Shown here piece after piece: positions 1-46,272 of a stretch of DNA of 64,000 bases. The number at the start of each line of letters is the position of its first letter. The first letter of the stretch is position 1. Source of the stretch: Cycas panzhihuaensis (Eukaryota > Plantae > Cycadophyta); assembly GCA_023213395.1 (NCBI GenBank), contig CM041465.1, forward strand, positions 2,790,001-2,854,000, given 5' to 3'. The position numbers and the translations under genes were made by a program. The notes beneath the pieces were generated by a model that worked only from the letters and a program-made list of their open reading frames with translations, ran no database searches and was not told the origin of the DNA.

Positions 1-2900
1 CTCGCTACCATCATAACCTTAACATCACCATGGAATAGGTTCCAAGGTGGAAATACTAAGATATTGCATGACACGTAAGGGCATGGCATTCATGGAAGAA
101 TCGTTGTTGACAACAATCATTTGCAAGGTACAATCAGGTGTATCGATGGTAATAGTAAATGGGAAGTTCCACTGATGTTCCCTTTCACACACGGGAGGAA
201 GGTCCTTAGGATCAAAAGAAATAATGGGTTCACGACTTTGGGTAACACCCAAAGCATGGATGGGTGTGTCATTTGATCCTAAAGCTTCCAAGAGAAGAGC
301 CCGTTGCTCGGGATAACTTCTTAAAACGTCCATCAAGGACATTCCTGCAACGACAGTATGGAGTTCATTAACGATAGAGAAAGGCTTACCCTTACAGTAG
401 GTTGGGTAAGTGCCCTTTAAAAATCGTAGTGACCAGGACACACAGGAATGGCCTTGGGAAAGAGAGGTACTTTTGAAGGAGGGTTCTCCTGAAGAGGATC
501 AAAAGGAGTAGAAGAAGAAGCACTAGCTGCTTCTTTGGCAGCTTGAGACCAGGTAAGGGCATACGAAGGAGTAGCCTCAATCATTTGGATCACCTTCTTT
601 CCCTTGTTCCGAGGCTACAAAGGTGATGGGGTACGTCAGTTAGGGGAACGGAAGGAAGAGAATAAATCTTGAGTGCCCTTCCCCTTATCGCGGGAAGGAC
701 AGAAATGTGGAAATCTTCCTCGGTTTCGGTTATTCTTGGATTGAGTGTTACAATCGCGTTCCTCATGTTTCGGTAATAGATCCTTGTGAAATGGTTGGTA
801 TAAATTAGGCCTTAAGGCCCGTTTAGGGGAGAAGTCACGTCGAGGGGCATCCTTAGGATGATGGGCCCTACAATGTAAATCATCGTGGAAGCACTCCCTA
901 TGAATGGAGTACCACTTCTTCTCAAGCGAGGGATCTATCTTCCTCGCTTGAGAGGACTAGGTGTTTCCATTCCTAGGGAGGGAAGCTTGGGTTGCTTGTT
1001 GAATTTGTTTATTAGATGTTGGAGATGAAGGAGATTGTAACTTGAGTTCCTTCACCGTACGTTCGAATGAATGTATGGCGAATGTGATCAGATCTAAAGT
1101 CTTCTCGGCTGGATGAGAAGAGGATCTAGAAGATTGTTGAGGTTTAGTATCTTTGCTTGGAGGTGGTACCTCACATCGCTGTGAGGGCTTGGGAGGCTTT
1201 TTGACTCCAGCTTGGATCTTAATAACCTCCAACGCTAAGCACTTGGAAATTGTGGAGTCACATGTGGTCGCCCCCATTTTAAGGACTTCCACATGTACTT
1301 CGAGACGAAGTGCGTTAACGGAAAGGTCTCTCTTTAACTCCTTGGGCAATATGGCCTTAGTGGAGTGAAGAAGGTCATGGAATCATCGCATAAAATCATG
1401 ATTCATCTCATCATGACCTTGTTTGAGCGATAGGAGGGATTTCATTTTGCTCTCAAATGGGCAAGCTACATCAAAGTAGTTGATGAATTTGTCCACCAAT
1501 TACTGGAATGAAAAGATAGAGTGGGCAGATAGGCAATAAAACCACTTAAGGGCATCGCCCTGCAAAGTTCGTGGAAACAATTTTATTAAGATATGGTTGT
1601 AAGCCCAGTAATCAATACATGCCATATAAAAACTACGTACATGTTCTGTTGGGTCTTGCAAAGAAGTTCCGTCAAATCTAGGAACTTCAGGAGGATGAGA
1701 CGGCAGATTAGTTCTTAATGCCTCAATAGATAAAGGTGTTGATCTATAATCCATGAAGGGATGCATCCTTGCCTGGATTGTAGGATCAATGAATGATGTA
1801 GTAGGTAGTGAGCAAGGAATAGACGAGGGTACAAACCCATCCCTCCTTGAGGAAATTCCCCTTGCTAGAAGGGGCTTGAGGATAAGCGCCTTGAAAGGGA
1901 GTCAGGTTCCCTTACGAAGGCATGGCAAAAGGGGTTGTGCTAGATGGAAAAAAAGGAGGGTGTAGAACCAGATTTTGCCTATATGGGCCGCTTGTAGGTG
2001 GGGCAATCCCATATGGGTGTAGCAGGTCCACTCCATAAGTTGGAAGGTGGTTCCCTTTACCCTACCCCCAAGGTTGAGAAGTATAACCTGGGGGTATGTA
2101 AAAGGAAAGGCCAACAGGTTGGTTTTGAGGATATGTGGGAGTAGGTCCCACATGACTAGTGGCTGAAGAGTTAGTGGGACCGATAAGCCTACTAGAGAAA
2201 GTATGCACCACATTGGGGGATGGTACATTAGTTTGGCTAGGAAAGGGTATGCTAACCTTCAATTGAGGGAAGAACGTACCACGAGAAGGTCCCAAAGCAC
2301 TAGGACCATAATGAAGGATAGAAGGTGCAACATGCATCCCCGAAATAGTAATAGGGATGGAACGGGACGAATGTGTAGGCACAAAAAGATTGGTTGTTAC
2401 AAAAGGAGCAGATGAGGATGAAGAAAGTGGGGAAGGAGCAGACGAGGAAGGGGCACCCCCATGGAAGGCATCTTCAAACCATCTAGGACGTGGTTGAAAA
2501 TGAGCAACGCGACAGCACTCATTAAAAGCTTCAACCACGTCGGCGGGAGGGGTATCTACATGATCATAAGAGGTAGATGGGACCTCAAATGAAGTAGATC
2601 CCTCAGGACGTTCCTCATAAGAATCACCAACCGAGTGGTAAATCTCAAGAGGAAAGAATCCTTCTACCGCATGAGTAGGAGGATGGGCATCAAGCAGGTG
2701 ATGTTGGTCACCCGGGTAGTAGATAGGACCATCACCCTCCTAGGTGGATCTCGTAATAGAAGAGGTAAACTCATGAGTTCCCAAAGCTCATGTGTGGTAG
2801 GCCCAATTGGAAGGGTATCCTTCCATAGTTAAATCAGAATCTGGCGAAGGAAGAGGATGATACCTAGGATCTTCTAACAATGGAGGTAAGCCACGTAAGT
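1..2900 (-). pseudogene. gag: Disrupted gag-protease polyprotein
   Basis: ORF 1500-1766 'VPRFDGTSLQDPTEHVRSF...LIKLFPRTLQGDALKWF' is retrotransposon gag; ORF 25-441 'ISFDPKDLP...MIVVNNDSSMNAMP' resembles the Tat protease VLVDNGSSxNxMP; Pro/Ser-rich N-terminus at 2062-2538; start approximate. Confidence 0.8.
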
Positions 2901-3066: not shown

Positions 3067-3085
3067 ATCCCCAGTATGATCACCA
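3067..3085 (-). promoter_or_regulatory. Primer-binding site, probably tRNA-Arg type, decayed
   Basis: Minus strand ...GCATCCA-C-TGGTGATCATACTGGGGAT, resembling the Tat/Ogre tRNA-Arg PBS TGGCGACTCCACTGGGGAT, 1 nt after an LTR-terminal CA. Confidence 0.65.
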
Positions 3086-3086
3086 G

Positions 3087-5797
3087 TGGATGCATGTCTA
3101 TGGGATAGCTACCTAACTGAGTAGGAATAATGAGGGTGATCAATGGCACTATCAAGTATGGATAAGAACCTACGAGCAAGGCAAATACCACGCAGGGTGC
3201 CCCGTGTGCCGGAGCGCGAGTTCAGGATCTGTGGATGGTACCTAGCTACCAAAAGGTGGTTCCCCACTTCCACTAAGAAAAGAGAAGGCAGAAGAGTAGT
3301 CAGGATGGATCTTGAAGAAGGGTCCTTCCACCCTTAGATGGCTGGAAGGGAAGGGAGAGAAACCCCCAAGGGTTCCCCATAGCAGAGGGAAATAAGTAGG
3401 TGAATAACCTATGGTTGAGGCTCCCTTAGTTGCTCGGATGAGTGGAGGAAACCAGGGGGAAATGTGAAGATTAATCAGGGTGAGGGTGCTAAAGGCACAC
3501 AAGTAAACGGAGTAAAACCAATACAAGCTAAGATGGCAAGGGCAAAGCTTATAAACTAAAGGGAAAAGGTTGGGAGAAAAGTCTTCCTAAAACCTTTTCC
3601 TATAATAGATGTGATGTACAAAGGTGCTAAACTGAATGTAAACCAAAAGAAGAATCAATTTCTTTTTTCCTTTCAAGTGATCTAATTACTACCATGCAAG
3701 AACTTCTAAAGAAAAGAGAATAAAAATGAAGCGAAGGCACATACCTGGAATGGAGATGCGATTGAAGTGGCAGCATTCCCACAAGGTGTCCAAGATCACT
3801 ACACAAAGCATGGCAAAAGAGAGGGGTCGTAGTAGGACAAAGCGTGGGGCTTCCTTACCTTCCCCGGGAGTGATACTAGAGTGCCAAGAAAGAAAAAAAT
3901 GACAGCGATAACAGCAAATGAAATGCTATAATAAATATGAATACATACACTTACCCGAGAGAGAGGAAAAGGGATAAGTCCTTTGCATCCTCCGTGTACC
4001 TGCAAGTAAGTGAGAGTATCCCTTTCCAAAGAAAGGGTTCTAGCAATACAAAGTGGAATCCCAACAACACATGTATGTATGTACCAAAAATAAGCCTCTA
4101 TACATATATGTTAGCATTCATGAACCACAAGTTTATAATAACAAACTATGATGAAAACTATCCAAATGAATGGTAGATAAGTTGGTAAGCCTTAGAGTGA
4201 CCCACCTCCCATAAGGAGCAATCCTACCTTCCCTTAAGAAGCCACAAGGTAGCGAGGATAGGCTTGTACAAAGGGCTGCAAAATGGAGACAACAAAAGTG
4301 CAAGGAAGCTCAAAGAGATCCTCAACAAACCAGAATGCTATGGGAAGCAATCCGAGTTGCCAGGAGTAAGGTTGAGTTAGGGACAAGTAGCTGGGGCTTA
4401 TGCATTGCCTGGATGGAGGATATAGGCTTGCAAACTAGTGTTGCAACAACTGCAAACACTGATTTTAGCGACTAGAAACAAGTTTCTAACCCTTAGCCCC
4501 ACTCCAGGAGTAGCACGGGGACAAAGAGGAAGGTTTGGAGGGTAGGAGCCTCTTAGGGAGTGTGAGAGTGGTGTGGAATCTACCCAGCTCTATCCCAAAC
4601 CTTATGCAACCCTCTTTGGTTGTTATCCTGGGCATGAAATATAGGAAAAGAAGCCTAAACAGTAGGGGAAACAATCTAAGACAAAGGCAAGAAGTAACCT
4701 CCAAAAATAAGACAAGACAAGCTAGTGCAAACCATGCAAAACTAAGTATAAACTAGGCAAGGAGAGACCTTAGACCAATAAATACCATTTAGAGAAGATG
4801 GGAGGCATTTGCCTCTGCCAAAACCTATTGAGAAGAGGCTGAGAAATTTGAAGAAAAGCTGTAGAGCAACAAGTATGGAGTCCCTGCTAAGATGGCTGAA
4901 GAAAAGTCCTTCACTTGATACCACTTGGTGGCTGCCTGGGCAAAGAGGTCCTGGAAACTCTTCAAGGAGGCCCTCCACAGAGCAAGGGCGTGAAGATATC
5001 ACAGCCGAGCCAAAGGAGAGTTAGGTGCTAGAGAGTGGTTGCAGGTCCTAGAACAACAGTGGAGCAGTAGGAGATAACAGACAGCAGGATGTTTTTCCTT
5101 GTTGATTCTTCTAAAATGAGCCCAAAAGATCTTAAAAAGTGAGTTGGGTAAGGCTTAAATACCCAGCCCCAGCCCTAATCAAGTGATTAGGGCTCGGCTG
5201 ACAGTGAGTTGAGTCATGAGACATGTTGCAATTCTACAATAAATGCATGAATTACCACGGCGGTTCTTAAAAATAAGTCATGACAGTCGCACCACGGTAA
5301 ACTTTGTGGTACCGCAGTAGACATCGTGGTACCGCGAAATCTACCGTAGTGCAAGACTAGAGGTCAAAACTAGCCCAAACAGCCAGCTTGGGATGTGGAC
5401 CAGTGACCTAGGAGGCTTCAAGGGGCAGCCCACCGCCAGAGGCGCATAAGTAGACAAATGAGCCATAGGAAGCAATAATGGGACTCAAAGGTGTGACAAG
5501 TCAACCAAACGATGATGGGTCATCACATGGGTGAGAATGACATGAACCAAATGGGTCTTAAGATGAGTAGGGCAGAATGCGGGAAGTGATGCAGCCACCG
5601 GGGTGTCATACTCACTGGGAATGTGCCCCTGCTATAGTCATCATAGGCTAAATGAGTGTAGACAACACAAACCCATCTACGAAGATGTAGCATGCAAGCA
5701 AGTATTTCTCACAAAAGAAAATAATAATAAGATGAGAAACACACTTACACTTACCTGAGTTGACCGCTCTGTATTCGTTCCTGGAAGCTAGGAAACA
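3087..5797 (-). repeat. Tat-type LTR, about 2.7 kb, flanked by PPT on one side and PBS on the other
   Basis: Minus strand starts TGTTTCCTAGC directly after PPT AAGGGGGTAG and ends ...TCCA before the PBS; TATA-like TATTTAA near 5155-5161; both ends resemble LTR 60918-63539. Confidence 0.8.
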
Positions 5798-5807
5798 CTA
5801 CCCCCTT
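5798..5807 (-). promoter_or_regulatory. Polypurine tract
   Basis: AAGGGGGTAG abutting the LTR TG; same junction (AGGGGGTAG-TGTTTCCTAGC) recurs at 63529-63548. Confidence 0.85.
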
Positions 5808-6134
5808 GGTAGCAGAGCCTCACCGCTCAGAAGCATGGTGCGATAGCAAATGCTGGCAACACAACTCTCAGTAGCACATGTGTATGTGGATATATAAGTC
5901 AGGATCATAACAATAGTCAAGGGTGCCGGTGAATGTTGTGGCAGAATGCCTGGATATGAAGGTAGAGGTAAAGGGAGCATAGGGGTTACCTATGTGCCAC
6001 CCGGAAGTCAACTAGAAAACACAAAGGGTGAGGGGGCTTCCCCCACCACAAAAGATGTAAAGAGATATACATAACCAAGTAGGAAAGATGAGTGAACAAA
6101 ACTGGCAGTCGCCATAGTTTAACCTCATTAGTGG

Positions 6135-6647
6135 CTAGGTTTCGGAGGTGCGAACAGATCGTAAGAAGAACAAAGATGACGGCTCAGGACTCGTGACAGA
6201 GCGGCCTGGACGGTCTCGTGGACGGCCAATGAGAAGAGGGAGGTGACACTCAATGGTGAGGCGAACGAGACTATCTACCTCAGCGTTGAGGGCTCGAGGA
6301 ATGTGTCGAATGTCGACAGACTGGAAGCAAGACAAAAGGGATCTGGCGGTCAAAGTAAGGGCTCTCAAGTAAGGGCATCGCACTTAGTAAACCTGAGTGA
6401 GATGGGACATCACAACCTAGGAGTCACAAAGAAGAACAATCGATTCGTGATGGAAGCAAAGAGCATTTGTCAGAGCTTTAATGAGAGTTGTGTACTCGGC
6501 TTCATTATTAGTAGCCTCTGGGATGAAGACCCCAAAGCGTAAGAAATCGTGTCCAGAGGGACTGCGAAGGATCCATGCAGCAGTAGAAGGTCCAAGGTTA
6601 CCGCAGCTTCCGTCGTTGGTAAAAATATAGAGAGACATGGGTGACAT
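6135..6647 (-). pseudogene. Archaeal-type RNase H (aRH, RVT_3-like) as a separate ORF, two in-frame stops
   Basis: MSPMSLYIFTNDGSCGNLGPS.AAWILR...ATNNEAEY..LI.AL...IVLLCDS*VV...FQSVDIRHIPRALNAEVDSL: D-E-D-D catalytic set and HIPRxxN motif; ORFs 6417-6737 and 6135-6383 share a frame. Confidence 0.9.
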
Positions 6648-7159
6648 AAAGTCCTGGTAATAATAAACAATAACGAAGCGAAAAGAGGCTTGAAAGGCAA
6701 GCAATAAATAACCGTGAAGGGTAGGAGGACCTAGCAATGAGGCTACCCAAGGACGAGAGCAAGCTAACCGACCACTGCTTGAGAGCAGGCAGAAAAGGTA
6801 CCCTGGGGTACCAAAGGTTGCTTCGGGAAGTAAAACATGCCCCCAGACTGGGGAGCACTCCCACTAGAGGCCCCAGGAGCAGAAAAGAGCTGCGGAAACG
6901 GGTCCGGGATGGCGAAATAAGCCAAACGAGTATAAACTTAGGCATGCACTGGGGTGGCATGTAAAACAAGACAGAAAGACCCTGCAAAAAAGTACAATGA
7001 CAAGGTGCCATAAATGCACTCACAAGAAGGAGCGAAAAGGAAGCTATAGGAGTGCAATGGGAGACAGGGCTAGAAGACAAAGGTGATCCAGGAAACGGGA
7101 TGGTCCAGACGGCTGTCACGAGAGCAAAAATAGAGACAGTGCCTGTCAGGGTCCCCACC

Positions 7160-7326: not shown

Positions 7327-9755
7327 ATGGCGACAGCTAGGTCGAATCTAGTGAGTGGATCCTATGAAACCCATCCCATTTCAAAGTTTTAGTTTTGGTG
7401 CTTTCTTATGATTTTTATGTAGTTTTTGGGCCCCATATGGGCAAATAGTGACCTCTTAGAGTCTGAATTAGACCTAGAAAGAGGGGAGACCTGGGCATTA
7501 GGTAGCCCTAGTCCTGGTGGGCCCCATAGGGGTCCACCCAGGAAGAATTTTTTTATGTTTTTGGGTAGAAAACCCCCCCTTTTGGGGGGGTGCCATTCGC
7601 ACTGTGGTAAAGATCGCGCTCCTATGATTTTTACTGCAGGGCCCTGATCGCCACGGGACCCAAGCTAAACTCATTGCATCAGGAGTTTAGCGGGCAAAGG
7701 TGAACCTATAGAAAAAAGAAGATGGAGGGGGCCAGCAGGCCCCGTATCTCGATCAGGCAAAGCTAAGAGATGGCTGGAAGGTCAGAGAGCTTATATGAGC
7801 TTATTTTAACTGGTTTTTGTGGTGTTTGTAGGCAATTATCGTGGTAGATAACCGCGAGAATATAGGGATGGCTATGCTTAGCTTCATCGAGATGATGTCT
7901 AGGGAGGATAAGGGGGTCCTATGGAGGTGTGGCTTGTTGAAGGCCCTGAAGACACCTCAGTACATATCAGACCAGAGACTATTAGTTGATATAGTATCAC
8001 ATTGGGACTAGAGGAGGCACGTTTTCCACCTACCCAGGTGGGAGACGTGACAGTGACGTCGAGGGACATCGAGCGGATACTGGGAGTACCGGCGACTAGG
8101 AGGCTAGTTGCACTAGGAGCGCTGCCTAACAATGAGACAACACACAGGGAGGCAGTAGTGTTTTTCACAGGGGCAGACATATGGGAGAGGAGAGGGGTTC
8201 CTCTCCAGACCATGGTTATGTCCAGAGTTCCTTTTTGTGAGGAAACTCATCACATTGTGCATTCTATTTTGGATTTCCTAGAAATAGAACTATAGGGACA
8301 TCCCTGGGGAATGGATAGATGCAGTGTGTCGTTGTGAGGTCGGTGAGAGGATGGATTGGGTCACCTTGATAGTGGCGAACCTCATCGCACAGTTGGATGC
8401 TATCAGGATGACAGACAGGGGGGGACTATCAAATAGCACGTTGCTATAGTGTTGGTTCTTCAATCATTTTGGAGCAGTGGCACCAACTGAGGGACCACAC
8501 CCCATTTTAGTGTGGGCCCCGATGGTCCACAGGTGATAGACCAAACTGAGGGGGACAAAGGACTAGGCCTATGTCCAACGTTCAATGGAGGCTACATCGT
8601 TGGACCTCCTCACTATGATGGATTTCATAGCATACCCATACAGAGTAGTGAGGTGAGACAGCGACAATGAGGCAGGGGGAGCCGGGATACTCCTAGGGGA
8701 TGATGATGATGGAGATGGAGGAGATGGGACCAGCCCACCACGACCTGCGGGAGGGGTAGGCCTATCAGGGATAGTAAGAGGAGTAATAGGGCCATCTGGG
8801 ACTGCCAGCAGAGAGGTAGGCCAATCAGGGGCTACGAAGGAGAGCAGGGGGCCAGTGACGAGGGCCCACAGGCTATGGATTGTGAGGAGATCCAAAGAGG
8901 TGACAGCTGAGCTAGTCCCAGTGAAGAGAGAGGCCTATGCAGAGGAGGTAGCTAAGGAGGAGGTACCAGCAGCTAGTGGGGAGCCATGAGCAGAGGCTAT
9001 CGCACGGGTAGAGGAGCCGGTGACTACGGTAGGTGAGACCTTACCTCCTCATCATTTGATAACCAGATAGATAGTTTGATTTGGTTTTATTTTGGTATGC
9101 AGTTGGATATATACTGACATATAGTATGTTGGGTTTGCAGGTACCACAGAGATCTAGCAGTTAGTAGAGGCCATGGTGAGGGAGATGTTCCCTCAAATAT
9201 ACACAGAGGGGCATCCGCCCATTCAGGCAGAGGATGCACATAGATCGGTAGGTGCCCACATGGCAGCATTCACCCCACTAGCAAGGGCAAGAGACATATG
9301 GGCTGCAGAGTCCCAGGAGCATATAGCATTCATGGGACAGATGCAACGAGAGCTGGACGAGGCTTAGGGTGTGCAAGACGTATTATAGAGTCGCGTACAG
9401 GCACTAGAGGCCCAAGGCAGAGCCGGAGGGGATATGGGGAGCCATATCCAGGTGGCGATGCTAAAGGAGAGACCCTGAGGGATGGAGGAGAGGTTGTGCC
9501 TCATAGAGGCAGAGCAGGATTATATCGAGGTGTGATACGATTGACTGGTTGAGGACATGGCAGTATTGAGGTTAGCACGGAGTAGGATTCAGACCCATAC
9601 GGTAGTGACGACCTTGAGGAGGCCACGAGATGAGGGGAGTGAGGTACGGAGCTCGTGGAGACCTAGGAGGAGTCTCAGAGGGATGTGGCCCCAGGAGAGG
9701 GATCACACAGACCAGGAGATGATACCCCAGGAACGGGGCAGTAGTAGTGTGGTAG
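7327..9755 (+). pseudogene. Spliced plant mobile domain (PMD, aminotransferase-like) gene, antisense to the retroelement
   Basis: Exons 7327-7350, 7640-7780, 7832-9032, 9141-~9755; GT-AG introns 7351-7639, 7781-7831, 9033-9140. Exons 1-3 splice in frame to MATARSNL/GPDRHG.../...LLVDIVSHWD*RRHVFHLP-(fs)-VGDVTVTSRDIERILGVP, matching PMD 'LVERWRPETHTFHLPxGEMTVTLxDVxxILGLP'. Stops are mostly CAG>TAG; end approximate. Confidence 0.8.
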
Positions 9756-10354: not shown

Positions 10355-11803
10355 TCAGAGTGTGGGTGAAGTGACAACAAGGTCAAGAGTAAAACTTCTA
10401 AGGAATTTCCCATTAATAGCTTTCTCAAACTCAAGACCTTCTAGGGTGGCAATCCTATAAGTAGCATTACCGAGGGTCTTGATAATGATGAAAAGGCCAA
10501 CCCATCTAGGTTTGAATTTGGTCAAACAGTCATGAAGATATTCTAATTTGAGGACGTGGTCCCTAGGAAACAAAGGATAGGAACTAAGATGTTTATCGTA
10601 GGTCCTTTGTGAGTGAGCTTTAGATGCCAGGTCAGCTTGATAAGCAGCTAAACGTCTCTCGTCCAAAGCTTCGAGGTCTAGAAGGCGAGCCTGACGGATC
10701 GACTCCTCGTCAATGAGAGCTCAAAGAGAGACTCACAAGGAAGGGATTTCCACTTCTAACAGGAGTACCACCTCGATATCGTAGACCAGGGAGAACAGGG
10801 TCATTCCTGTGGCAGAATGGATAGAGGTACGATAAGCCCACAAAGCAGAAGGCAACTGGAGGTGCTAGTCTCTTTGAGACTAAGCAACAGTTTTCTTTAG
10901 GATATTAATGAGAGTCTTGTTAAATGACTCTACCTAACCATTTGCTTGGAGGTAGTAAGGAGATGAGGTCTTATAAGAAATCTTCAACTTCTCGCAAAGC
11001 TCATCCATCTCCTTGTTACAAAAGGGGGTTCCATTATCAGTGATTAAGACATTTGGAATCCTAAAATGATAAATGATATGCTGGTAAACAAAGGTGGCAA
11101 TCATTTTACCAGGAGTAGTAATTAAGGGAATGGCCTCTACCCATTTGGTGAAGTATTCTGTAGTAGTCAAGATAAACTTGTGCTGCGATGACGAAGGTGA
11201 AGAGATAGCCTCGATGAGGTCTAGCCCCCACTGAGCGAAAGGCCATGGAGAAGTAATGGGGTGAAGGGCCTCGGAAGGCACATGGGAGATGTTGGCATGT
11301 TCCTGACATTGCCGGCATCTCAGGGCAAAGGTGTGGGCGTCCTTAAAGAGGGACGACCAAAAGTAACCTATACAAAGGATCCTCTGGGCCATAGACTGGC
11401 CCCCACAAATACCATGGTGGCATTCGTAGAGTATTTGGTTGGCTTCGTCGGCAGTGATGTAGCAAAGGAGGATCCCATCGAAGGACCTCTTGTACAATAC
11501 TTCATCCATGAGGATGTATTACCTAGCAGAAGTCCAGATACGAGATGTAACTTTACTACTAACATCAGGGTAGTATTGTTGTTGCGTGAGATACTACACT
11601 ATATTGCCATACCACTCATTGTCGATGAATGGATGAGGAGAGACATCCTGAATCATCAAGATGGACTTATCAGGGAGTGAATCATCGATGGGTGTATCAA
11701 AAGAGTTAGGAATAGGGGTGTCTGCGAGCTGCTCGGCCACCACCATTCCCTTCTTCGATTTCCGGTTAATGATATGAAGGTCGAATTCTTAGAGTAGGAC
11801 GAC
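10355..11803 (-). pseudogene. pol: pol C-terminus: end of RNase H directly followed by integrase
   Basis: VVLL*EFDLHIINRKSKKGMVVAEQLAD (RH end); CHHGICG...CRQCQ zinc motif; WPFAQWGLD...YFTKWVEA...ITDNG..F core; KFKPRWVGLF GPF/Y region. Confidence 0.92.
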
Positions 11804-14800
11804 ATCTTCTTGGAGTTGAACGCATGAGACTAGGAAAAGAAGATGCAGGAATTTAGGGGACTTTTTAAGGCATGAAACATGAAATACATTATGGATCTTA
11901 GAGTTGGGTGGGAGTTCAGGTGCATAGATAGCTTCACCAATCTATTAAAGTGTTTTATATAGGCTATAAAAATATGGACTAAGCTTTTGAATTATATGGT
12001 ATTTGAGAGATTGTTGCTTATATATTTATATATGAACAAAACCTAGGTCAATAATAAAAAATAAGTAATCAGAATGGTGACAATCAATGAGTTATTTCAT
12101 GTAATTTTGAGTTGTTGCCAAGTTTTATTTAAGCATGTGAAGAATTTAACCTATACCTTAAAACTTATATTGAACTATATCAGTTTGAAGGTTAATTGCT
12201 AAGGTATGATGAGATGCAAGAGGATATCTATAGAGGACCATAAATGGGGATATGTGAAGAGTTGAGTGATGGGATAAGTTGCACTAATATTCTGAAAGAG
12301 CTAGTTATGGCATCCATTTATACTAGTATTCAAAAGAAAAGTATTATAAGCATGTTTCTAACATCTTATCTAGGACTTTAGATTAGCCATTATTTGTAGA
12401 TAGCATGTTGAACTCATTTGAATGAAGTCCCAGAGGCTTAGAAGGGTTCTTGCCAAAATGAGCTAATAAGTTTAGGGCCTCGATCATAAACTATTATTGA
12501 TAAAACTTTATGGAGATAGAAAATATACTAAATATAGAGATCAATGAGGTATAATGCTTTATAAGAGGTATAAACATGTAAGAAATATACATACTTAGTA
12601 AATCTACCAACAATTACTAAGATCGAGCCCATAGTAATATCCATAGTAACGTCTTTCCATAGTAATATCTTACCATTTTCTTTGAGGGATATGTAGGGGT
12701 TGGAGAAGGTCTAGTTGAGCCTCAATATTGATTTTATTTCTTTAGTAAGTGTCACACTTATAAACATATGTAAATATGGAGGATGTTATAAAAATCTAAT
12801 AAAAATAAAACCAATATAGTAATATATTTTATCAAACCACAAGTGACCTCCTAGGGGAGTGGAGTGATACTTAGATAAAATACATAAGATAAAAGATGAT
12901 ACAAGGTAAACAAAAATGTAATTTTAGTATAAGAGGTGGGTTTTATATATGAACCAATCCATTTGATTATGAACTTTAGTGGTCCATTAGTTTCAATTTA
13001 GTAGAGATTAGTTCTTTTTTACTAGTTTTATTAACCATGTTAGTTAGGGCTTAGAAAACACATGGATAATAGATTCATGCATAATGGGCTTAGAGGGAAG
13101 ATGGAAGAGAGTATCAACAACCATATTTTACTTTCCTTTTTTATATGTAATAATGAAATTAAGTATATGTATATATCTAATCCACTTAATTTTCTCTTTA
13201 GATAAAACTATTTGGTTAAGAAGGTGACAGAGGCTATGGTGATCCATTAAAATAGTGAATTTAGAACCTAAAAGGTATTGACACCACTCAACTATAACAT
13301 ATAGAATAACATTCATTTCCTTTTGATGTATTAACAACTAACATTCATGGTCTTTGAGTTTCTAACTTTTAAGTGCTATTGAATGAATGTTCTATAAAAG
13401 GATAACATCAAATCTAAATGTAAAAATATTACATTATAACTAGAAAGGTTGGAAGAAATTTGGGATAGAAAGAACTCAGGTGGATGTTATGATGGACTTA
13501 AGATAATTAAAAAAATCATCTATATCTTGTGATAATTAAAATATGTCTTTATAGAGCAAATTTATTAATGAGGCCATAAGAGAGACATAATTTCAAGTAA
13601 GTTAATGGTAAAATCCTATAAGCCCTAAAAAAAAACATAACTAGGTGAGCTTTCTAGGTGTGAGTTATTGAGAAGACAAGGTCCCACTAACCTGAAACCA
13701 CCACCAAGATCTAAACTATTTTGCAACTAGTTATAGGAATCGAAACTAAAATTTAACATATAAGTTCTTAAACCAGAGATAATACAATCAAATGAATAAG
13801 AAAGTCAAGCATCACATATACACCTGATATAATATGGTAAAACCCTAGCAGTGTGCTAGGGAAACATCCACATAGGAAAGGTATCGATCTTTATTATCAA
13901 GAATGGAGAAGTATATACAATCTGTAACCCAGTGCTCATAGTAACAACAACCAGCCACCCAACTACTCACAGTACATACATTACATCAAACACCATTAAC
14001 ATAATGAAAAATACCCTAAATTGGGCTACATGAGAGAGTCATACAAGGCACAAATCTCGACCATAGAATCTAGGATATTTTGAGCAAATGACCCTGATTC
14101 TCTTTACAATTTAATATACCCCCCACACCCCCTGGCCAAGGGGCACTCCCACCCCCCTTGGAACCCCCTAAGGAAGGTTTGGGAGGGAAACCGTACTGCT
14201 AACCTATAAAGATTTTAGCCTCCAAATCGTTGTTGTCACATTATCTAACATGAGCCAAGTTGTGATGACTAAGATTTTGTTTAGGTCAACCCATATGCCT
14301 TCTAAATATATGATATGACCTAGACATTATAACTCAAACTTGTTAAACTCATATTTAGATAACTTTACATAAAGTTAGTATTAGGTGAGAACATGGAGTA
14401 TAGCTTCCAAATATTACAAATGATTATGCAAGATCAAATTATAAATAAGAATGTTGTTGAAAAATATAATGACAAAGTTTTAGAGGTATGGGACAAATTT
14501 CTTATTTATTAATAACTTAAAATTTAAAATGCCTATGAGGTGTTCAAAAAGTAATCATTTGATAATCCTTTAGGGTAATAAGAATCTAATAATAACCTAA
14601 TTAAAGGTCTAATTTAAAGAAGATGGTGGCCCTATATATTTTATCAATCATGTTATGAATCTTAGGTGTCAAAATTTTATTTTTAATTATGATTTTATTA
14701 AGTTTATGATAGTTAAACTAGGATAATATGAGCAATGTATGGCTTTTACTATGCTAGATGATACCTATGTTAATAAACTCATTAGTGATTTTCTCGATTT

Positions 14801-16600
14801 TAAAGTTTTGATAAAGGTGAAGGATAATGGGGTCATGGGATGATATTTAAGTTCAATCGAATAGTGAAAACCTTGGTTTGAGGGAGGGCTAGGTGAAATG
14901 GGGACAAATATAGATTGGCATTTATCGAGGAGATTTTGTATATCAAGGTGGATGTGAGTATGGGGTTGCTTATTATTAATGTAGACTATGTAGACAACAT
15001 TATTATTCAAGTGTTTATATAATTGATTTGGAGAGATGATTTTATTGGGGAATGATTGGATACCATGAAGTTTATGCATCTGACCCATGTTATCCTTAAA
15101 TAATGTAAAAGGATTATTGGGTGAATTATTCATGTTATATATACCAAGAGTTTAGAGCCATTGCACTTAGAGAATAGTATTAGATCCTCCTATGGATAGA
15201 GCATAGAAATTTAAGGTTAGGCAATAAGTATTAATTAGAATATGTAGGTTTTTCATTATTTCAACAAAATATAGAGTTTGATAACTTGGCGAGGAACAAG
15301 TAAATCCAATCTTGGGTACAATATAAATATTGATTTAACAAGGAAAGGATATATTAGTGAAGTTTAGTCAGGTTCCATTATTAATCAAAATTGTGATAGG
15401 TGTTTTAAAAGGGTGCTTTTCATTTGAAGTGGCTTTAGATAAGATGTGGAAGAAATAACTGATCAAGAGACTTCAATTTGAAGGTTAAGGGAGGAACATT
15501 CTTAGAGAGATTTATTATTAGGTTTATTTTTGATGTTAAAATTCTTGTCTAATATAGGGCCAATAGTGAAAACCATTTATTTTACTTTACACACTCTCCC
15601 ATGATTAGGGGCCTATTTTTCTAAGTACTTAACACATAGGCTAGCATTTATATACTTGTCCACTTTTATTAATGATACATGTGTCGATCCTACAAGAGGG
15701 TTGCCATTAAACATTATACCTCATTTGATCTAATACATTTATGTTAATGGCTTAAGGGATGGGGGCATTGGTACCATATAAAATCTTGCTTAAAAGAAGT
15801 TGAGCATTTTGTGATGAATTTAGCATTGACTACTTTTGCCATTAAAATAACATCTCTTAAGCTATATAGGGTGGTCACCTTAAGGCACATTTGAATGCGC
15901 TCCTTGAGCCCAGATATATATACATCAATAAGTGTCTATCGATTGAGTGGTTGAGAAACTTGATTTTGCAATGCTTGAAACTCATCTACATAGGCCTCTA
16001 TTAATGTTATATATTTCAATTGAGTGAGTTGGCTAAAGGAGGAATGGTTCCATGTATCTTCATATAATTAAAAAAAAAAATTATAGAATATATCTCATGT
16101 TTAATTTAATAGATTCTCATATTTCTACCAACATAACTAATGGTATGCTTTTCCATCCAGATGGATTGAAGTAAACGTTAATTGTTATATTGGGGATATA
16201 GGATTTATAGAAGAATAAGATTTCAACTTACTTATCTAGCTTTTTACAATGTCCCTATTAAGGTCATGATTGAATGTTGGTATGATAATTTTATGATGAA
16301 ACTATTATTACCATGGTGGAGGTGAGATATTATGAAGGGGTGGGAAATTATGGGGTGGTGGGCATGTGGGATTATAATTTGGAGGTGAGAGATCTATTGT
16401 GGTCAAGGCAGATAAGATATTAGAATTAAATGCTAATTTCAAGAGTATCTTATCTATTTTTTGGTCTAAGGCATCTTATTTCTAATTGGCCTCCTTAGAT
16501 TATTAATCATGTTTCTGACCTATTTCTTCTAGGTTTCAAGCTATTTCTATAAACAGAACCTCTAATGCTTAGATTTGATTTGCTTGAGTGGAAGCCATTA
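11804..16600 (-). mobile_element. Heavily decayed Ty3/Gypsy (chromovirus-like) gag-pol relic
   Basis: RNase H fragment 13128-13337 'EWCQYLLGSKFTILMDHHSLCHLL'; pre-RT linker 14765-15133; integrase-like remnants at 11.9-12.9 kb; very AT-rich; LTRs not resolved. Confidence 0.75.
13666..14250. mobile_element. Solo LTR, 585 bp, inserted in the Gypsy RT/RH linker
   Basis: T(A)TTGAG...CTAACA ends, TSD TGAGT/TGAGC; removal restores the host 'TWLTPRK' (WPxP-type) frame. Confidence 0.7.
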
Positions 16601-21812: not shown

Positions 21813-24800
21813 TGATGAAAAATAGAGCAAAGACTGATTTGAATTAAACAGAGAAGAAGTGTATTTTACATTGAGATTCAACCTTCTTAAGTATATATCA
21901 ACAATGTGATGGTTACAACCTCTAATGTAACCAATCACTCTGATACTGCCAAGTGGCATCATCTTACACTATGACTATATTGAGTGTGGTCTTAACATGA
22001 CCCCCTTTCATACCTAGATAAAACATTATATCTTAACACCCCCTCTTAATGTTTTATCTCTAATAATCTAATTTTGTCTCTTAAATATTTGAGTCTTTCT
22101 CTTCCAAGAGGTTTTGTCAGAAGATCTGTAACTTGTTCAGCTGAGGGGCAATATTCCAAGTCTATCTCTTTATTACATACTTTTTCTCTTATGAAATGAT
22201 GATGAACTTCAATGTGCTTTGTTCTTGTATGTAGAACTGGATTTTTGGTCAGCTTGATGGCACTTTGATTGTCACATTTCAAGGAGGTTGCTTCTTTTTG
22301 CTGTTGATCTAAGTCGAACAGAAGTTTCCTTAACCATACAGCTTCACAGGTTGCCAACGTAGCTGCTTTGTATTCCACTTCTGTAGAGGAGAGAGCTAAT
22401 GTAGTTTGTTTCTTATTACACCATGAGATTACTGAGGCTCCTAAGAAGAAACAATATCCACTAGTGGATTTCCTTTATTCTTTGTCACCTACCCAGTCAG
22501 AGTCGCTGTACCCTGATATTTCGACTGGATACCCTTTCAAGTATACTAACTTGAAATCTGTTGTTCCTTTGAGGTACCTTAAGACTCTTTTTGTAGTTTG
22601 CCAATGTCTCAACTTTGGATTTTGCATGTATCTGGATATTAGTCCTACTGAGTAGGATATGTCAAGCCTGGTGGCTATTAAATAAATTAGACTTCTAATC
22701 ATTTGTCTATACAATGTGACATCTACATCCTTTTCTATACTATCTACTGTTAAGTCACAGTTTGGTTCCATGGATGTTGTGCATGGATTGCAATTCTCCA
22801 TTTGAAATCAAACAAGCAGACTTTTGATGTAGTTACTTTGGGACAAGGTTATATAGTTTTGATGCTGACCTACCTCTAGTCCCAAGTAGTAATTTAGAAG
22901 CCCTAAGTCTATCATTTCAAATTTTTACTGCAGTTAACTTTTGATCCACTTAATTCCTTCTTCATCATCTCCAGTGAGAAGCATATCATCTACATAGACA
23001 ACAATTATTGTTATCTTGTTGTTTGTTTTTCTTTTGTAGAGACTGGAGTTGGAGTTGCACCGAGCAAACTTATTTTCTTCAAGAAAATGATCTAATTTGG
23101 CATACCAGGCGCGTGGAGCTTGTTTTAGACCATACAGAGTCTCTTTTAACTTGCAAACTAGATTCTCCTGCCCCTGTTTTGTGTATCCTTCTGGTTGTTT
23201 CATATAGACTTCTTCTTCTAGCTCACTATTCAAGAAGGCACTTTTTACATCTAACTGTAAGATTTTCTAGTCTTGTGCTGCAGCCAAGGTAATTACTGTT
23301 CTTACTGTATTCATTTTTGCTACTAGAGAGAAAGTCTCATTAAAATCTACTCCTGTTGTTTGAGTGTACCCTTTTGCAACTAACCTTGCCTTGTATTTTT
23401 CTATTTTTCCATCCATTCCCCTTTTTGTTTTGTAAACCCATTTGCAGTTTACAGTGGATTTATTGGCAGGTAGTTCTACTAACTCCCACGTTTGATTCTT
23501 CTTGATTGAGTTCATTTCATTGTCCATTGTCGCTTTCCATTCTTGATGATCTTTTGCTTCTTGAAAGTTCTATGGTTTGACTTTGCTTAGAAGGGCTCTT
23601 GACCTTTGTCCCCGTGTTTTCTGTTCTATTACACTTCCTTCTTCAACTGTTTTAATGTACCATTTTGGCAGCTTTTTCTGTTTTCATAGGTCTTCTTTCT
23701 CGATCACGTCTTCTGGTACTTGACTAGTTGATGATGGATCTGCTTGTCCTTCTTCTGAAGTGATTTCTAAATCACTTCTTTTTTTAGCTTCTTGATTTTC
23801 TGAGGTAATTTTTGACTTATTTTCTTACTCATCTTCTTGCGTCCCTTTGTGTCTGACAGCTTCCTATTCATTTTCCTTCTCATCTTCTATTATTCTAATT
23901 TGTGAGGATTCAACAGAATTTTCTTCGTTAAAAACAACATCTCTACTTACATAAATTTTATTAGTTTTTGGATCTATGCATTTGTAGGCCTTTGAATTTT
24001 TACTGTAGCCTATCAAAATGCATTCTATGCTTTTTGCATCTAATTTGGACCTTCTTTTATTAGGAATATGCATAAATGCTTGGGTGCCAAAAATTTTGAG
24101 AAGACTTACATCAGGTTTTTGTCATGTCCAAGCTTCTTCTGGGGTGATATCCTTTAATACTTTTGTTGGACTTCTGTTTATCAGGTAGCATGCTATACTG
24201 ACTACTTCTACCCAATATGTTTTTGATATTTTGGTTCCATACATCATGCTTCGAGCCATTTCCATCAGAGTTTTATTCTTTCTTTTGGCCACTCCATTTG
24301 ACTGAGGGGTATAAGGAGTTGTAATCTGTCTATGAATCCCTCGATCCTTGCAGTAATTTAAAAACTCCTTTGATATATATTCCCCTCCTCCATCTGATTT
24401 GATGCATTTGATTTTTGTTCCTGATTCTAGCTCTGCTTCTACTTTGAATTTTTTAAATGTTTCAAAAACTTCTGATTTATTATGCAAAAAATATACCCAT
24501 ACTTTCTGAGTGAAATCATCAATGAAAGTTAAAAAATATCTGCATCCATTAATTGTGAGAGATGTAATTGGACCACAAATATCTGTATGTATCAATTCTA
24601 ATTTTGTCTAAGCTCTCCAAATGCTTTCTTTAAAAGGAAGTCTATGCTATTTTCTAAGTTGACAACCTTTACAAACAAATTTATCTGATGAAATATTAGG
24701 TAGACCATTAACCATTCCTAATTTTTCCATTTGTTTAAGTGTATCAATTGAGAGATGTCCATACCTCAAATGCCAAGCTTTATTATTAGATTTAGAAGCA

Positions 24801-26953
24801 GTACAAGCTTTTTCTTCTAGATAAGGAAGTATAGGATCTGACAAGAGTTTATAAAGATCATTACATCTGATTCCTTTTTCAATAATTTTCCCACCTCTCT
24901 TCATGTCTAGAATATGACAATTCCCTTCTTCATCGAAAATGGTTCTCAACCCTTTTTTGCTTAATTGAAAAACAGAGAGGAGATTCATTTTTAGATCTGG
25001 TACAAATAGAACATTTCCAATTATTTTTTCATTCCCATCCAGATTTACTGAGATAGTTCCAATCCCTTTTATATTAAGGGAATACTTATCACCCAGTTCC
25101 ACTGGTTTGTCCATATTGTAGGGTTTCATGGTTTCAAACCATTCTTCCCAACTTGTCATATGTTTAGAAGCTCCTAAGTCTATGTACCATATGTCTTTGT
25201 CTTTCATACCGGTAACTAACGCTATGATGAAAGCTGTCTCTTCTTCCTCCTCCTCTTTGTCCTTCTCTTTACTGTAGCCTCCAATGGGTCACTTTCCTTT
25301 CTGAATTTCACTTCGTCTTTGTGGACATTGATATGGATAGTGTCAACTTTATCCATAATAGTAGCAAATATCAAAGATTCTGCAACTGCTGGCAAAGTGC
25401 CTGGTTCTTCCACAGTTGTAACAGACCCTATTTTCTCTGCTCTATCCTTGCCCTCTGGAACTTTGCCAGTGTCCTCGTCCTCGGAAGTCTATTGTTCTAC
25501 TTTGTCCTTGAAATTATTATCTCCCTCTTGGCCCGAGATTCAGTCTAGACGTAAATGCATCCTCCAATTCTATCGTATTTTCATACCTTTTGTTTCTCTA
25601 TTCTTGTCTAAGCAACAATCCTGTCAATTCATCAAGAGTTAACTTGTCTAACCTATCATTGTCTATGATAGTATTGATAATTGTGTCAAATGACTTTGGT
25701 AACCTTGCAGTTACAATTTCTACTAGGTCTTGTTCATAAATTAAACCTCCAGCACTTAAGAGATTATTTCTGACAATAATAATTTTATGCATAAAATCCT
25801 CTACCTCTTTATTTTCTTTCATGTGAAGCTTGTACAGTTCTTCTTTGAGTGCAATTATTCTTGCCTTATTCTTTTGTCCATATAAGTTTTCCAAGCATTT
25901 CCATATTTCAGATGCCAAATTTAATTTTTCCACATAGACTAAAACTGAATCTGAAATTGACATTTTCAATGTGAGACTGGCCATATTATTTCTTTCAATC
26001 CAACTTCCTAGCTTATCATCACCAACTGGAGGATGTTTTTCTGTCCCTTCAGCAATTTCCCAGGTATTTTTCACCTTCAAAATTATTTCTAACTTGATTT
26101 TCCACACATGATAGTTAGAACTAGTTAATTTTTCTGGTTCAGGCAGAGAAATGAGGGATGAAGATATTTTCATCAAGTCAAAAGACAGAGTTTAGAGCCT
26201 GTCTGTACAGCTGTACAAATTTCCATACAGAACCCTAGGTGTATGGCTTAAACAAGAAAATACCTCAAAGGAAGGTAGAAGAGAGAAAACTACTCCAGAA
26301 GGAAAAATGGTAGGTAGGGCAGAAAATTAATCTTTGAATATGGATGCAAATTCAATGTATTGATACTAAGAAGGGTTTTTGATTGGAAATACCTGATATT
26401 CTAAGAAAATCGTGAAGATTTTTGAGATGAATCCTCCAAAAATGTGTGGACTAATTCAGGCTTGATTTGGCCTTGAAAATGACCTCAGATGACTTGGATC
26501 CAGAAGAGAAATGTACTCAGCGTGCTTTGATCTACCTCCCCACCAAATTTCATTGCGATCTAACACTTTTGAAAAAAACTCATCCGTACAGGTCCGTACG
26601 ATTCCGTATGCCAGAGCAATGATGAAGCAGATATCCTAACTACCTTGTCTGTTTCTTCTATCCTTGATGGAACTTCTAGACAGGAGAAATTTTTCAAAAA
26701 AGATCAGTTTGGGTGACTGCTCGATACCATGATGAAAAGCAGCAAAGACCGATCCGAATTAGGCAGAGAAGAAGTGTATTTTACATTGAGATTCAACCTT
26801 CTTAAGTATACATCAACAATGTGATGGTTACAACCTCTAATGTAACCAATCACTCTGATACTGCCAAGTGGCATCATCTTACACTATGACTATATTGAGT
26901 GTGGTCTTAACATGACCCCCTTTCATACCTAGATAAAACATTATATCTTAACA
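21813..26953 (-). mobile_element. Full-length Ty1/Copia, 5.14 kb, short LTRs
   Basis: LTRs 21813-22038 and 26730-26953 (TG...CA); TSD TCAAC; PBS TGGTATCGAGC (Met, 1-nt deletion) 26719-26729; PPT AGAGGGGG 22039-22046. Confidence 0.97.
22046..26176 (-). pseudogene. Copia gag-PR-INT-RT-RH polyprotein with stops and frameshifts
   Basis: gag UBN2 (25598-26176); WYIDLGASKHM protease; WHLRYGH...CKGC; HTDICGP, SDGGGEY integrase; KARLVAKG, LYGLKQAPRAW, VYVDD RT; CDNQSAI, TKHIEVHHHFIRE RNase H. Confidence 0.95.
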
Positions 26954-44000: not shown

Positions 44001-46272
44001 TTTACATCAGAAGTAGATATTGTAGGTCCTTTATTTGGCATCACAGGAGTGGAGAGAAGTTTGTATAGCCTATTACATTTTTCTCCTTTAGCTATTACAA
44101 CACCATTCTTTTTCATGTCAAGGATATAATGGTGCCCATTTTCATCAAATATTGTTCTCAGTTTTTTTTCGCTTGACTGAGACACTGATAGGAGATTCTT
44201 CTTCATTCCTGGTATGAAGAAAACATTGCCTATTCATTAGATTTTTCCATCAATATTTATGGCAATTTGTCCTATTCCTTTTATATGTAAAGGAAAGTTA
44301 TCTCCCAATTCGACAAATTTATTAAGATCATATGGTTGAGCACTTCAAACCATTTTTCAATTTCAGTCATGTGATATGAGGCTCTTGAATCAATGTATCA
44401 GTTTTCTAGTCCATTGGAGCTTGCTGTTAATACTGCTATGAAGGTTGTTTCTACTTCTTCTTTTGTTGAGTCTCATTCTCTGTTGTAGTTTTCGGACACT
44501 TGCTTCCCTTTTTGAATTTCAATTCTTCTCTGATGACATTGGTATGGATAGTGGTCTGGTTGTCCGCAACGGTAACATATGTCAAAGGCTTTATAGGCAC
44601 TTGAAAAATGACATGGTTTGCCATAATTAAAACAAACTATGACATCACGTGGTAGATTTGTAATAGTTCTTCCTCATCTTGCCTTTAGTCCAATGACCTT
44701 GGTAGCCACTTGTTACTCTTCCTCATGTTTTGAGGTTATACTGATCTCATCCTTGACTTTGCAAATGAAGTTTGGTGACAAGTGCTTCTTCAATTTCCTT
44801 GTCTTCTTCATATCTCTAATTCCTCTTCTCTTAACTGAGCATGTATCCTATAAGAGTATCAAGGGTCATTGTGGTTGTTTATCCTCCACCTGTCAACATG
44901 TTTACCATGTTATCAAATGATTTAGGAAATTTATTGAGCATAAGATGTATTAACTTAGTATATATATTATTTTATCCTCGGCTGTAAGAAGTGTAGTTTT
45001 AATGTTTGTCAAATCAATTATGAAGCTGGATACTATTTGGCCTTCTTTCATCCTAAGCTTATAAAGTTCCTCCTTGAGTGCAATAATTATGCCTTCATTT
45101 TTTTGATTGAACATGGAGGATATTATTTTCTAAATTTCATGAGCATTCTCAACACCATCTACATAGACTAGTAGGGGATTAGAGATTGAAAGTTTAAGGA
45201 CAAATACAACAAGATTGTTTCTTTCTTCCCAATTCAATAGATCATCTCTGTTAGTGGGTTATTTTTCATCACTAGTGGTGATTTTCCAGGCACGCTTTAC
45301 TCTTAAGTGGCCCTCTATCTTAATTTTCCAAATACTAAAATTCAATTTAGTCAACTTGTCATCTTCAACCAATGATCTAGTAAAAGAGGCCATGATCAAC
45401 AAAAATTTTAATTTTTGTGTGCAGAAATGAGGTTATACGCCTTTATGGAAGGCTATACAGATTTCCATATGGAATCTAAAGTGTACGGATGAGATAAAAT
45501 AAGGTGTCAAGTAAAAGATCAATCTGGTGTTAAATTTTAAAAACTCTCTCAGATTTAAGAGAAATGACACCAGAAAGCTCCAAACTTGTGCCCTTAGGTT
45601 TTTGGGTATTTTGATAAAAAATTCTCAAAACAAGAGAAAAAACTAGCAATTTAGGACTTGATCTCTTTAATTTCAGATGAAGAAGGTTTTAGATACTTAG
45701 TACCCAACTTTTGTCTTGAATTTTTGAGAAACTTTGAAGGAGAAGTCTTCTAAACCTATGTGTAGAGAAATCTGGCCAAAAGTCCATCAAAAAGTCTTTA
45801 AATCATGATAGTCCAAAAGAAGAAAATGTTGAGGAGACCCTGATCTATGATCTAGACAAGTTTCATTAGATTCTGATGACTTTGGTTCTTAACATCCATA
45901 CAATTCCATACAGTTCCATACTCTGAACCGAACATAAGAGGAGCTATGTCTAATACTTTGATGAATCTCTTGGACTCCTTAGACTTCCTCAATTTCCTTA
46001 ATCTAATGCTTCTCTAATTCCCAGAACCCTAATTCTCTTATAGACAGAGGGACTCACCAGCCTGCTCTGATACCATGTAGAAGAAATTCATCCTCATCCT
46101 TTATTGATCATTTGCAAGTCTTTAAATACATCTTCAGGAGTACAGGATAAATGACAACTGCTTAATGAGATGGTGTCACTTGTCATATTGAAGAAGAAAG
46201 GGGAAGATGATACATGACCCTTACTAAGGACCTATATAAAACATTAATCTAGATAAAACATTACCTTTTACA
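41040..46272 (-). mobile_element. Full-length decayed Ty1/Copia, 5.2 kb, related to the 21813-26953 family
   Basis: LTRs 41040-41237 and 46076-46272; TSD GTAAC/GCAAC; PBS TGGTATCAGAGC 46064-46075; PPT AGAGGGGG; RT ORF 42123-42716; integrase ORFs 43229-44206. Confidence 0.95.

What the first reader, a model, noticed from the sequence alone, without database searches (positions are those of the whole stretch)
6135..6660. Archaeal-type RNase H as a free-standing gene next to the PPT, detached from pol
Established: Tat lineages carry an extra aRH domain, typically inside the polyprotein (between RH and INT in Ogre/Retand, other positions in non-angiosperm Tat clades). Seen: the native RH runs straight into integrase with no aRH, and the aRH lies about 3.7 kb after the integrase stop, beyond an antisense gene. 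It has its own ATG (6647) preceded by a U-rich tract and CAG acceptor at 6654-6656, and all catalytic residues are present. Inference: a Tat architecture in which aRH is separately expressed. I cannot verify whether it is already described.
Basis: partly seen in the sequence, partly recalled or inferred. Interest (0 to 1): 0.75.

Follow-up and report, generated by a model that had tools for sequence, protein, structure and literature searches.

The report
Known TatIII retrotransposon, solo RNase H
This is a decayed copy of a plant jumping gene that carries its extra RNase H enzyme as a separate small gene near its tail end, a layout already published for gymnosperm "TatIII" elements; only how that gene is expressed (likely by splicing, untested) is still open.

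Summary
On the minus strand the native RNase H tail runs straight into integrase (stop 10357-10355). An antisense PMD-gene remnant follows, then a solo archaeal-type RNase H frame (6647-6135), a polypurine tract and a likely LTR. The aRH groups with stand-alone 'Gb_' gene models (Ginkgo by their prefix; 46% identity, support 100/96), apart from polyprotein aRHs, and has repeat-level cover in 4 of 4 DNA runs. Three corrections: this copy has two in-frame stops; it has Asn at the first catalytic Asp; and ATG 6647 differs in 51-64% of laid depth, so the conserved start is 6638. What remains of interest: the antisense gene between integrase and aRH rules out a contiguous Pol C-terminus in this copy. 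A U-rich CAG/G acceptor-like site kept in relatives suggests an env-like spliced mRNA, which is untested.

The parts
10355..11810 (-). 3' part of pol: last ~30 residues of native RNase H, a linker, then integrase; 8 internal stops in the frame; stop at 10357-10355 taken as terminal
   Evidence: Pfam rve and Integrase_H2C2; stops; no aRH at the RH-INT junction
7830..9700 (+). Antisense extra gene remnant: PMD-like domain, then a likely coiled-coil part; broken by stops and frameshifts; ends approximate
   Evidence: PF10536 weak hit at about 8285-8653; translations
9033..9140 (+). Candidate 108-nt GT-AG intron in the antisense gene (AG/GT donor, U-rich body, GCAG/G acceptor, same frame on both sides)
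   Evidence: Read from the sequence; inferred, no transcript
6654..6681 (-). U-rich tract and CAG/G acceptor-like site 15 nt upstream of the conserved ATG
6135..6647 (-). Solo archaeal-type RNase H (aRH) frame; conserved start at 6638; two in-frame stops; Asn at the first catalytic Asp site
5798..5808 (-). Polypurine-tract-like purine run, followed directly by TG
   Evidence: Sequence
3087..5797 (-). Likely single LTR (TG...CA, ~2.7 kb) shared by the upstream and downstream units; holds donor-like sites at 5754, 3954, 3858 and 3744
   Evidence: No second copy in the window; one contig joint at 3087 (table 5c); donor scan; boundaries inferred
3067..3085 (-). Degenerate primer-binding-site-like sequence just after CA
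   Evidence: Best match in 12 kb to a recalled Arg-type PBS motif, 14 of 19; 7 of 100 shuffles reach 14 or more
1..2826 (-). gag (ATG 2826) and the start of a protease-like region of a second unit, running off the window; frameshifted
   Evidence: PF03732 E 4e-5; ATG; protease-like motif recognised from recall

Best explanation
This is a decayed copy of a Ty3/gypsy Tat retrotransposon whose archaeal-type RNase H is a separate frame 3.7 kb after the integrase stop and just before the polypurine tract, matching the published gymnosperm TatIII 'post-integrase' layout; in intact copies the gene is likely translated from its own, probably spliced, mRNA and would supply RNase H in trans. SHOWN: the gene order, the solo frame and its breaks, repeat-level cover, and grouping with stand-alone 'Gb_' aRH models. 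FROM THE LITERATURE: native RH is degraded in all aRH-bearing Tat structures, so aRH is thought to be the working nuclease (Biryukov 2023); in the sister Athila lineage the 3' 'env' ORF2 is made from a spliced subgenomic mRNA (PMC7197481). INFERRED: a donor in the LTR or leader joins the CAG/G at 6654; translation starts at 6638; the ~135-residue enzyme is co-packaged in particles and degrades the RNA template during reverse transcription. I put TatIII-type membership at about 0.9 and the splicing step at about 0.45.
For: Order and frames. [quoted passage not shown] Relatives: the best named eukaryotic hits are Gb_11691 (142 aa, 46%), Gb_19334 and Gb_07833. Tree of 53 domains: the window plus 9 stand-alone relatives form one side at 100/96, and the 22 polyprotein aRHs another at 100/99. 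BLASTP bits: 74-117 to the stand-alone relatives, 62-92 to presumed prokaryotic RNase HI, 26-52 to polyprotein aRH. This agrees with published reports that lineage-III aRH clusters with prokaryotic genes. A diverged relative, L001 (42%), independently shows non-coding AT-rich DNA, its own ATG, a 142-codon aRH, a stop, then about 70 nt later a G-run and TG. Repeat-level summed contig depth over the aRH in 4 of 4 runs: 10,800-48,600 at 6077-6510, against 20-730 beyond 12,153 (not a copy number). Acceptor: the G at 6654 differs in 18%, 2% and 5% of depth; 6655 shows no variant; 6656 varies only C/T, which keeps YAG. Three loose-end rows from diverged copies keep a U-rich tract plus CAG/G.
Against: No transcript shows splicing. 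No listed holder was on record as RNA. The one run guessed to be RNA gave 4 contigs, 2 of which run on unspliced through the acceptor site; genomic RNA or DNA would do the same. The region is conserved overall (116 of 126 positions without a listed variant), so AG retention is weak evidence of selection. Sites meeting my acceptor pattern occur about once per 1.1 kb outside the element. L001 has no AG within about 35 nt of its ATG. RT is not in the window, so the RT-based clade assignment could not be tested. No listed contig spans INT-PMD-aRH in another copy. Donors are pattern matches only, and the LTR limits are inferred.
Confidence: 0.78

Rival explanations
1. Same TatIII-type element, but the solo aRH is expressed without splicing, from an internal promoter in the ~1.1-kb spacer it shares head-to-head with the antisense PMD gene, or by internal initiation on the genomic RNA.
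For: The aRH (minus, 6638) and PMD (plus, ~7830) starts diverge across a non-coding spacer. Two contigs of the RNA-guessed run cross the site unspliced. L001 lacks a nearby AG.
Against: The U-rich CAG/G is kept in diverged copies whose neighbouring bases differ. The sister Athila lineage makes its 3' ORF by splicing. No plant promoter test was available; the sigma-70 scan is irrelevant to a plant.
Confidence: 0.3
2. A 3.7-kb intron holding the antisense gene is removed so that aRH is fused in frame to the end of Pol, which would reconcile the 2015 description of aRH at the Pol C-terminus.
For: [quoted passage not shown] The frame is open from the acceptor into aRH (previous in-frame stop at 6866). 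The sister Ogre lineage splices its polyprotein transcript.
Against: Acceptor-to-ATG spacing is 15 nt here but 16 nt in three loose-end rows (two from X24, one from X7; read by eye), so phase is not kept. Relatives begin with, or keep, a Met at the aRH start. My donor pattern found no site between 10500 and 9045.
Confidence: 0.1
3. The aRH is a private insertion, a LINE fragment or a captured host gene and is not part of the element.
For: Plant L1 elements also carry an aRH, and a decayed LINE with an RNase H-like stretch lies at 31934-31548 in this window.
Against: That LINE stretch gives no BLASTP alignment to the solo aRH at E 10. The aRH has repeat-level cover like the neighbouring PMD region in 4 of 4 runs. 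It groups with stand-alone relatives, one of which sits by a PPT. Host RNase H1 and other L1 aRHs were not in my tree.
Confidence: 0.03
4. The aRH belongs to the downstream gag unit as a 5' 'pre-capsid' ORF (structure #4).
For: On the minus strand the aRH precedes a gag that starts at 2826.
Against: A PPT-like tract plus TG, and a CA plus PBS-like site, lie between them. Structure #4 is reported only from mosses and a clubmoss. L001 shows the aRH-PPT-TG order.
Confidence: 0.04

Closest known systems
TatIII (REXdb; Neumann 2019, PMC6317226) = Tat lineage III (Ustyantsev 2015, PMC4408406) = structure #3 'post-integrase', clusters Tat H (Pinaceae) and Tat I (Cycas, Ginkgo) (Biryukov 2023, PMC10508981; Prokopeva 2026, PMC13468544)
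   Same: aRH after integrase, as a separate ORF in the 3' region; none between RH and INT; antisense 3' PMD eORF; aRH clade distinct from Ogre/Retand aRH and closer to prokaryotic RNase HI.
   Different: In the text I read, no paper states that the PMD gene lies between integrase and aRH, or names a splice acceptor; figures were not visible. The 2015 paper drew aRH as the Pol C-terminus, which this copy's layout does not allow without splicing. This copy is broken, lacks RT and is joined by one LTR to a second gag unit.
Stand-alone RNase H gene models Gb_11691, Gb_19334, Gb_07833 (prefix read as Ginkgo biloba from recall)
   Same: 43-46% identity, single domain, own Met, same clade at 100/96.
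   Different: A sister subfamily with a slightly longer N-terminus; genomic context not available; closer unnamed relatives exist (P0128 63%, P0130 53%).
Ogre and Retand (structure #1), TatI/TatII (structure #2)
   Same: Tat-type integrase (40-49% identity); an extra aRH; Ogre carries PMD eORFs.
   Different: Their aRH is inside the polyprotein; the 22 polyprotein aRH domains I tested form a separate clade.
Athila 'env' ORF2
   Same: Sister lineage; an extra sense ORF downstream of pol; made from a spliced subgenomic mRNA.
   Different: An unrelated protein; here splicing is only inferred.

Membership tests
TatIII / structure #3 (Tat H/I) | aRH located after integrase | tested here: met
   Integrase stop 10357-10355, aRH 6647-6135, same strand
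TatIII / structure #3 (Tat H/I) | No aRH between native RH and integrase | tested here: met
TatIII / structure #3 (Tat H/I) | aRH in its own ORF in the 3' region | tested here: met
   Own ATG, 3.7-kb gap, PPT-like tract downstream; same in L001
TatIII / structure #3 (Tat H/I) | aRH clade distinct from Ogre/Retand-type aRH and near prokaryotic RNase HI | tested here: met
   the published reference sequences themselves were not available, so Gb_ models stood in
TatIII / structure #3 (Tat H/I) | Antisense 3' eORF with PMD | tested here: met
   Weak PF10536 hit on the + strand, below the curated cut-off
TatIII / structure #3 (Tat H/I) | RT (and INT) phylogeny within Tat H/I | not testable with these tools
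   RT of this element is not in the window; REXdb files too large to read; no INT tree was built
TatIII / structure #3 (Tat H/I) | No aRH between protease and RT | not testable with these tools
   That region lies outside the window
TatIII / structure #3 (Tat H/I) | PBS mostly tRNA-Arg (64%); 5-bp TSD; 12.7-17.3 kb | tested here: inconclusive
   14 of 19 match to a recalled Arg-type motif, reached by 7 of 100 shuffles; no LTR pair or TSD in the window; my rough size estimate of ~16.5 kb is in range
TatIII / structure #3 (Tat H/I) | Degraded native RH catalytic core | tested here: inconclusive
   Only the last ~30 residues are present
TatIII / structure #3 (Tat H/I) | Gymnosperm host | tested here: inconclusive
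   Nearest named aRH relatives are Gb_ models; the highest full-length integrase identities are Taxus 49% and Cryptomeria 48%; host not named
Ogre / Retand (structure #1) | aRH between native RH and integrase | tested here: not met
Structure #4 'pre-capsid' | aRH ORF between the 5' LTR and gag | tested here: not met
   PPT-like tract and likely LTR lie between aRH and gag
Archaeal-type RNase HI | D-E-D-D core, with Arg in the C-terminal motif | tested here: inconclusive
   E51, D75, D125 and R118 present; first Asp is Asn in this copy but Asp in the relatives aligned

The most novel reading that the evidence does not exclude
TatIII elements make their working RNase H from an env-like spliced subgenomic mRNA (LTR donor joined to a CAG/G just before the aRH start) and package it as a free subunit: a retroelement whose RNase H acts in trans to RT, with an antisense gene nested in the removed part. 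This would answer the question, left open in 2023, of how aRH can function from a separate ORF.
Probability: 0.4. Interest if true: 0.5.

Novelty: new member of a known kind. Interest (0 to 1): 0.22.

Why it matters
The layout itself adds little: four papers describe it. The useful residue is mechanistic. Biryukov 2023 asks how aRH could work from a separate ORF, and Prokopeva 2026 notes conflicting reports on whether it is part of pol. This copy shows a 3.7-kb gap holding an antisense gene, a conserved start at 6638 and a specific candidate acceptor at 6656-6654. That gives a single junction to test in RNA data.

Tried and rejected
No whole genome is held for the window, so intact copies could not be inspected. 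A single-sequence word search with the aRH found 0 hits among 54 candidates; the profile search did find relatives. Locus searches: 39 metagenome loci with the aRH alignment, of which only L001 was examined as a plant-type relative; none of the 54 metagenome and viral loci matched the element's first 12 kb by blastn, or by tblastx outside the aRH. With the integrase: 3 short contigs at 32-34% in genome contigs, not followed up, and 0 in viral contigs. No RNA holder listed. Whether Asn11 is private to this copy could not be read: no variant row appears there, but depth falls and loose ends begin near 6620, so divergent copies are clipped. The sigma-70 promoter scan does not apply to a plant. 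Paper searches for PBS motifs gave nothing useful. A search for 'plant mobile domain, Tat, RNase H, Ginkgo, retrotransposon' found 0 papers; 'TatIII, gymnosperm' found 4, one of which I read. Look-ups of earlier scan findings gave nothing relevant. A second G-rich tract near 6050 was considered as the PPT and rejected because no TG follows. A Met-type PBS candidate at 4927 was judged weaker than the one at 3085. A weak Rap_GAP hit at 14765-15148 was rejected as spurious. No structure or complex prediction was run.

Full report
WHAT IS THERE. The first 11.8 kb of the window is GC-richer (43-53%) than most of the rest. Read on the minus strand it holds, in order: the last ~30 residues of a native RNase H running into integrase (Pfam rve, Integrase_H2C2; frame stop 10357-10355); an antisense gene remnant on the plus strand with a weak PMD match; a solo RNase H frame at 6647-6135 (RVT_3 E 4.5e-16; archaeal-type by its PDB and database neighbours); a purine tract at 5808-5798 followed by TG; about 2.7 kb read as one LTR, ending in CA at 3087 with a degenerate PBS-like site behind it (one contig joint at 3087); and gag from ATG 2826 (PF03732) with a protease-like start that runs off the window. 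At ~11,815 the element abuts the integrase SH3 end of a different gypsy element (PF24626), so its RT is missing. The single LTR between two half-units looks like a tandem or recombined arrangement.

CHECK OF THE OBSERVATION. Position, strand, the 3.7-kb distance, the missing aRH at the RH-INT junction, the antisense gene and the U-rich CAG are all confirmed. Three details fail. The frame has two in-frame stops (6419-6417, 6386-6384). Residue 11 is Asn at the first catalytic Asp column, while E51, D75 and D125 are present. ATG 6647 differs at its first base in 51%, 58% and 64% of laid depth in three DNA runs, whereas ATG 6638 shows no variant at the 15% threshold and matches the Met of the two closest proteins, P0128 (63%) and P0130 (53%).

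IS IT PART OF A FAMILY? Yes. In 4 of 4 DNA runs the aRH bins have summed contig depth of the same order as the PMD region and far above the flank beyond 12,153. This is not a copy number, and no listed contig spans the whole order. A profile of five sequences found, as best named eukaryotic hits, three stand-alone models Gb_11691, Gb_19334 and Gb_07833 (prefix read as Ginkgo from recall; 46% over 131 residues for the first). In a tree of 53 domains with none dropped, the window and 9 stand-alone relatives form one side at 100/96, and 22 polyprotein aRHs form another at 100/99. The 21 other rows are presumed prokaryotic and were only partly checked by name. Host RNase H1 and L1 aRHs were not in the tree. 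The LINE RNase H-like stretch in this window does not align to the solo aRH. Locus L001, 42% identical, repeats the layout on its own: ~500 nt of AT-rich non-coding DNA, ATG, 142 codons with 4 internal stops, a stop, and ~70 nt later a G-run and TG.

WHAT IS KNOWN. Ustyantsev 2015 (PMC4408406; passages, section 6 and legends of two supplement files read, figures not visible) describes gymnosperm lineage III with aRNH after integrase, drawn as the Pol C-terminus, and an antisense 3' PMD eORF. Neumann 2019 (PMC6317226; passages and one supplement row) defines TatIII by aRH after INT: 39 elements, 12.7-17.3 kb, PBS mostly tRNA-Arg, reverse 3' eORF in 18%. Its element table and FASTA were too large to read and may state the order of the eORF and aRH. 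Biryukov 2023 (PMC10508981; whole text and supplement parts 1 and 3 of 3) reports structure #3, aRH in a separate ORF, in Pinaceae, Cycas (68% of Tat elements) and Ginkgo, and says this raises the question of how the domain could function. Its text says 'upstream of pol' for #3, but its table gives INT.aRH. Prokopeva 2026 (PMC13468544; passages) calls it 'post-integrase' with a 'solo aRH' ORF and notes conflicting reports on pol versus a 3'UTR ORF. The architecture is therefore known. I did not find the order INT-PMD-aRH or a splice acceptor stated in what I read (searches).

HOW IT LIKELY WORKS. Native RH is reported degraded in all aRH-bearing Tat structures, so the aRH is probably the working nuclease. 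In this copy it cannot be a contiguous part of Pol. A downstream ORF on a long plant mRNA needs its own message (general knowledge). The sister Athila lineage makes its 3' ORF2 from a spliced subgenomic RNA (PMC7197481, passages; PMC1142308 passages were also read, and add nothing decisive). Here a U-rich CAG/G lies 15 nt before the conserved ATG. It is one of 2 such sites in 3721 nt, is kept as YAG in most laid depth, and is visible in three loose-end rows from diverged copies. Donor-like sites occur in the likely LTR. In those three rows the spacing is 16 nt rather than 15, which fits a non-coding leader and not an in-frame fusion to Pol. Against splicing: there is no junction evidence; 2 of the 4 contigs from the one RNA-guessed run cross the site unspliced; the stretch is conserved throughout (10 of 126 positions vary); such sites occur about once per 1.1 kb elsewhere in the window; and L001 lacks a close AG. 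I give splicing about 0.45, an internal promoter or internal initiation 0.3, and fusion by splicing 0.1.

VERDICT. A real feature and a further, decayed member of a described kind. Interest 0.22. The testable remainder is the candidate splice junction at 6654.

Noticed in passing
window 9033-9140 (+): The antisense PMD-like gene has a clean candidate GT-AG intron of 108 nt; both flanks are in the same frame and three stops fall inside it. An intron would make ORF-based eORF counts (250 codons or more) miss such genes.
   Followed up: partly
window 5797-3087 (-): One LTR-like stretch joins the 3' half of one unit to the gag of another (tandem or recombined elements). A pipeline could misread the aRH as a pre-gag ORF. 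It holds 4 donor-like and 6 acceptor-like sites.
   Followed up: partly
window ~15500-11815 (-): Decayed gypsy element of another lineage (RT-like remnant near 14.6 kb, integrase SH3 end PF24626 near 11.9-12.0 kb) joined directly to the Tat RH tail; the weak Rap_GAP hit at 14765-15148 is probably spurious.
   Followed up: partly
window 21813-26953: Ty1/copia element on the minus strand with ~225-nt LTRs 96% identical.
   Followed up: no
window 41042-46272: Second Ty1/copia element with ~196-nt LTRs 89% identical and 66-71% similar to the first in pol.
   Followed up: no
window ~31500-37000 (-): Decayed LINE (zf-RVT at 32265-32648) with a degenerate RNase H-like stretch at 31934-31548, unrelated by BLASTP to the Tat aRH.
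   Followed up: partly
window 58449-58859 (-): Copia-type gag fragment (PF14223).
   Followed up: no
window 47298-47804 and 50037-50543: A 507-nt direct repeat, 77% identical, 2.7 kb apart in AT-rich DNA; nature not examined.
   Followed up: no
L001 1-1125; P0274, P0275, P0277: A metagenome contig and three annotated 'Gb_' gene models appear to be solo TatIII-type aRH genes, so some host gene models may be retrotransposon ORFs.
   Followed up: partly
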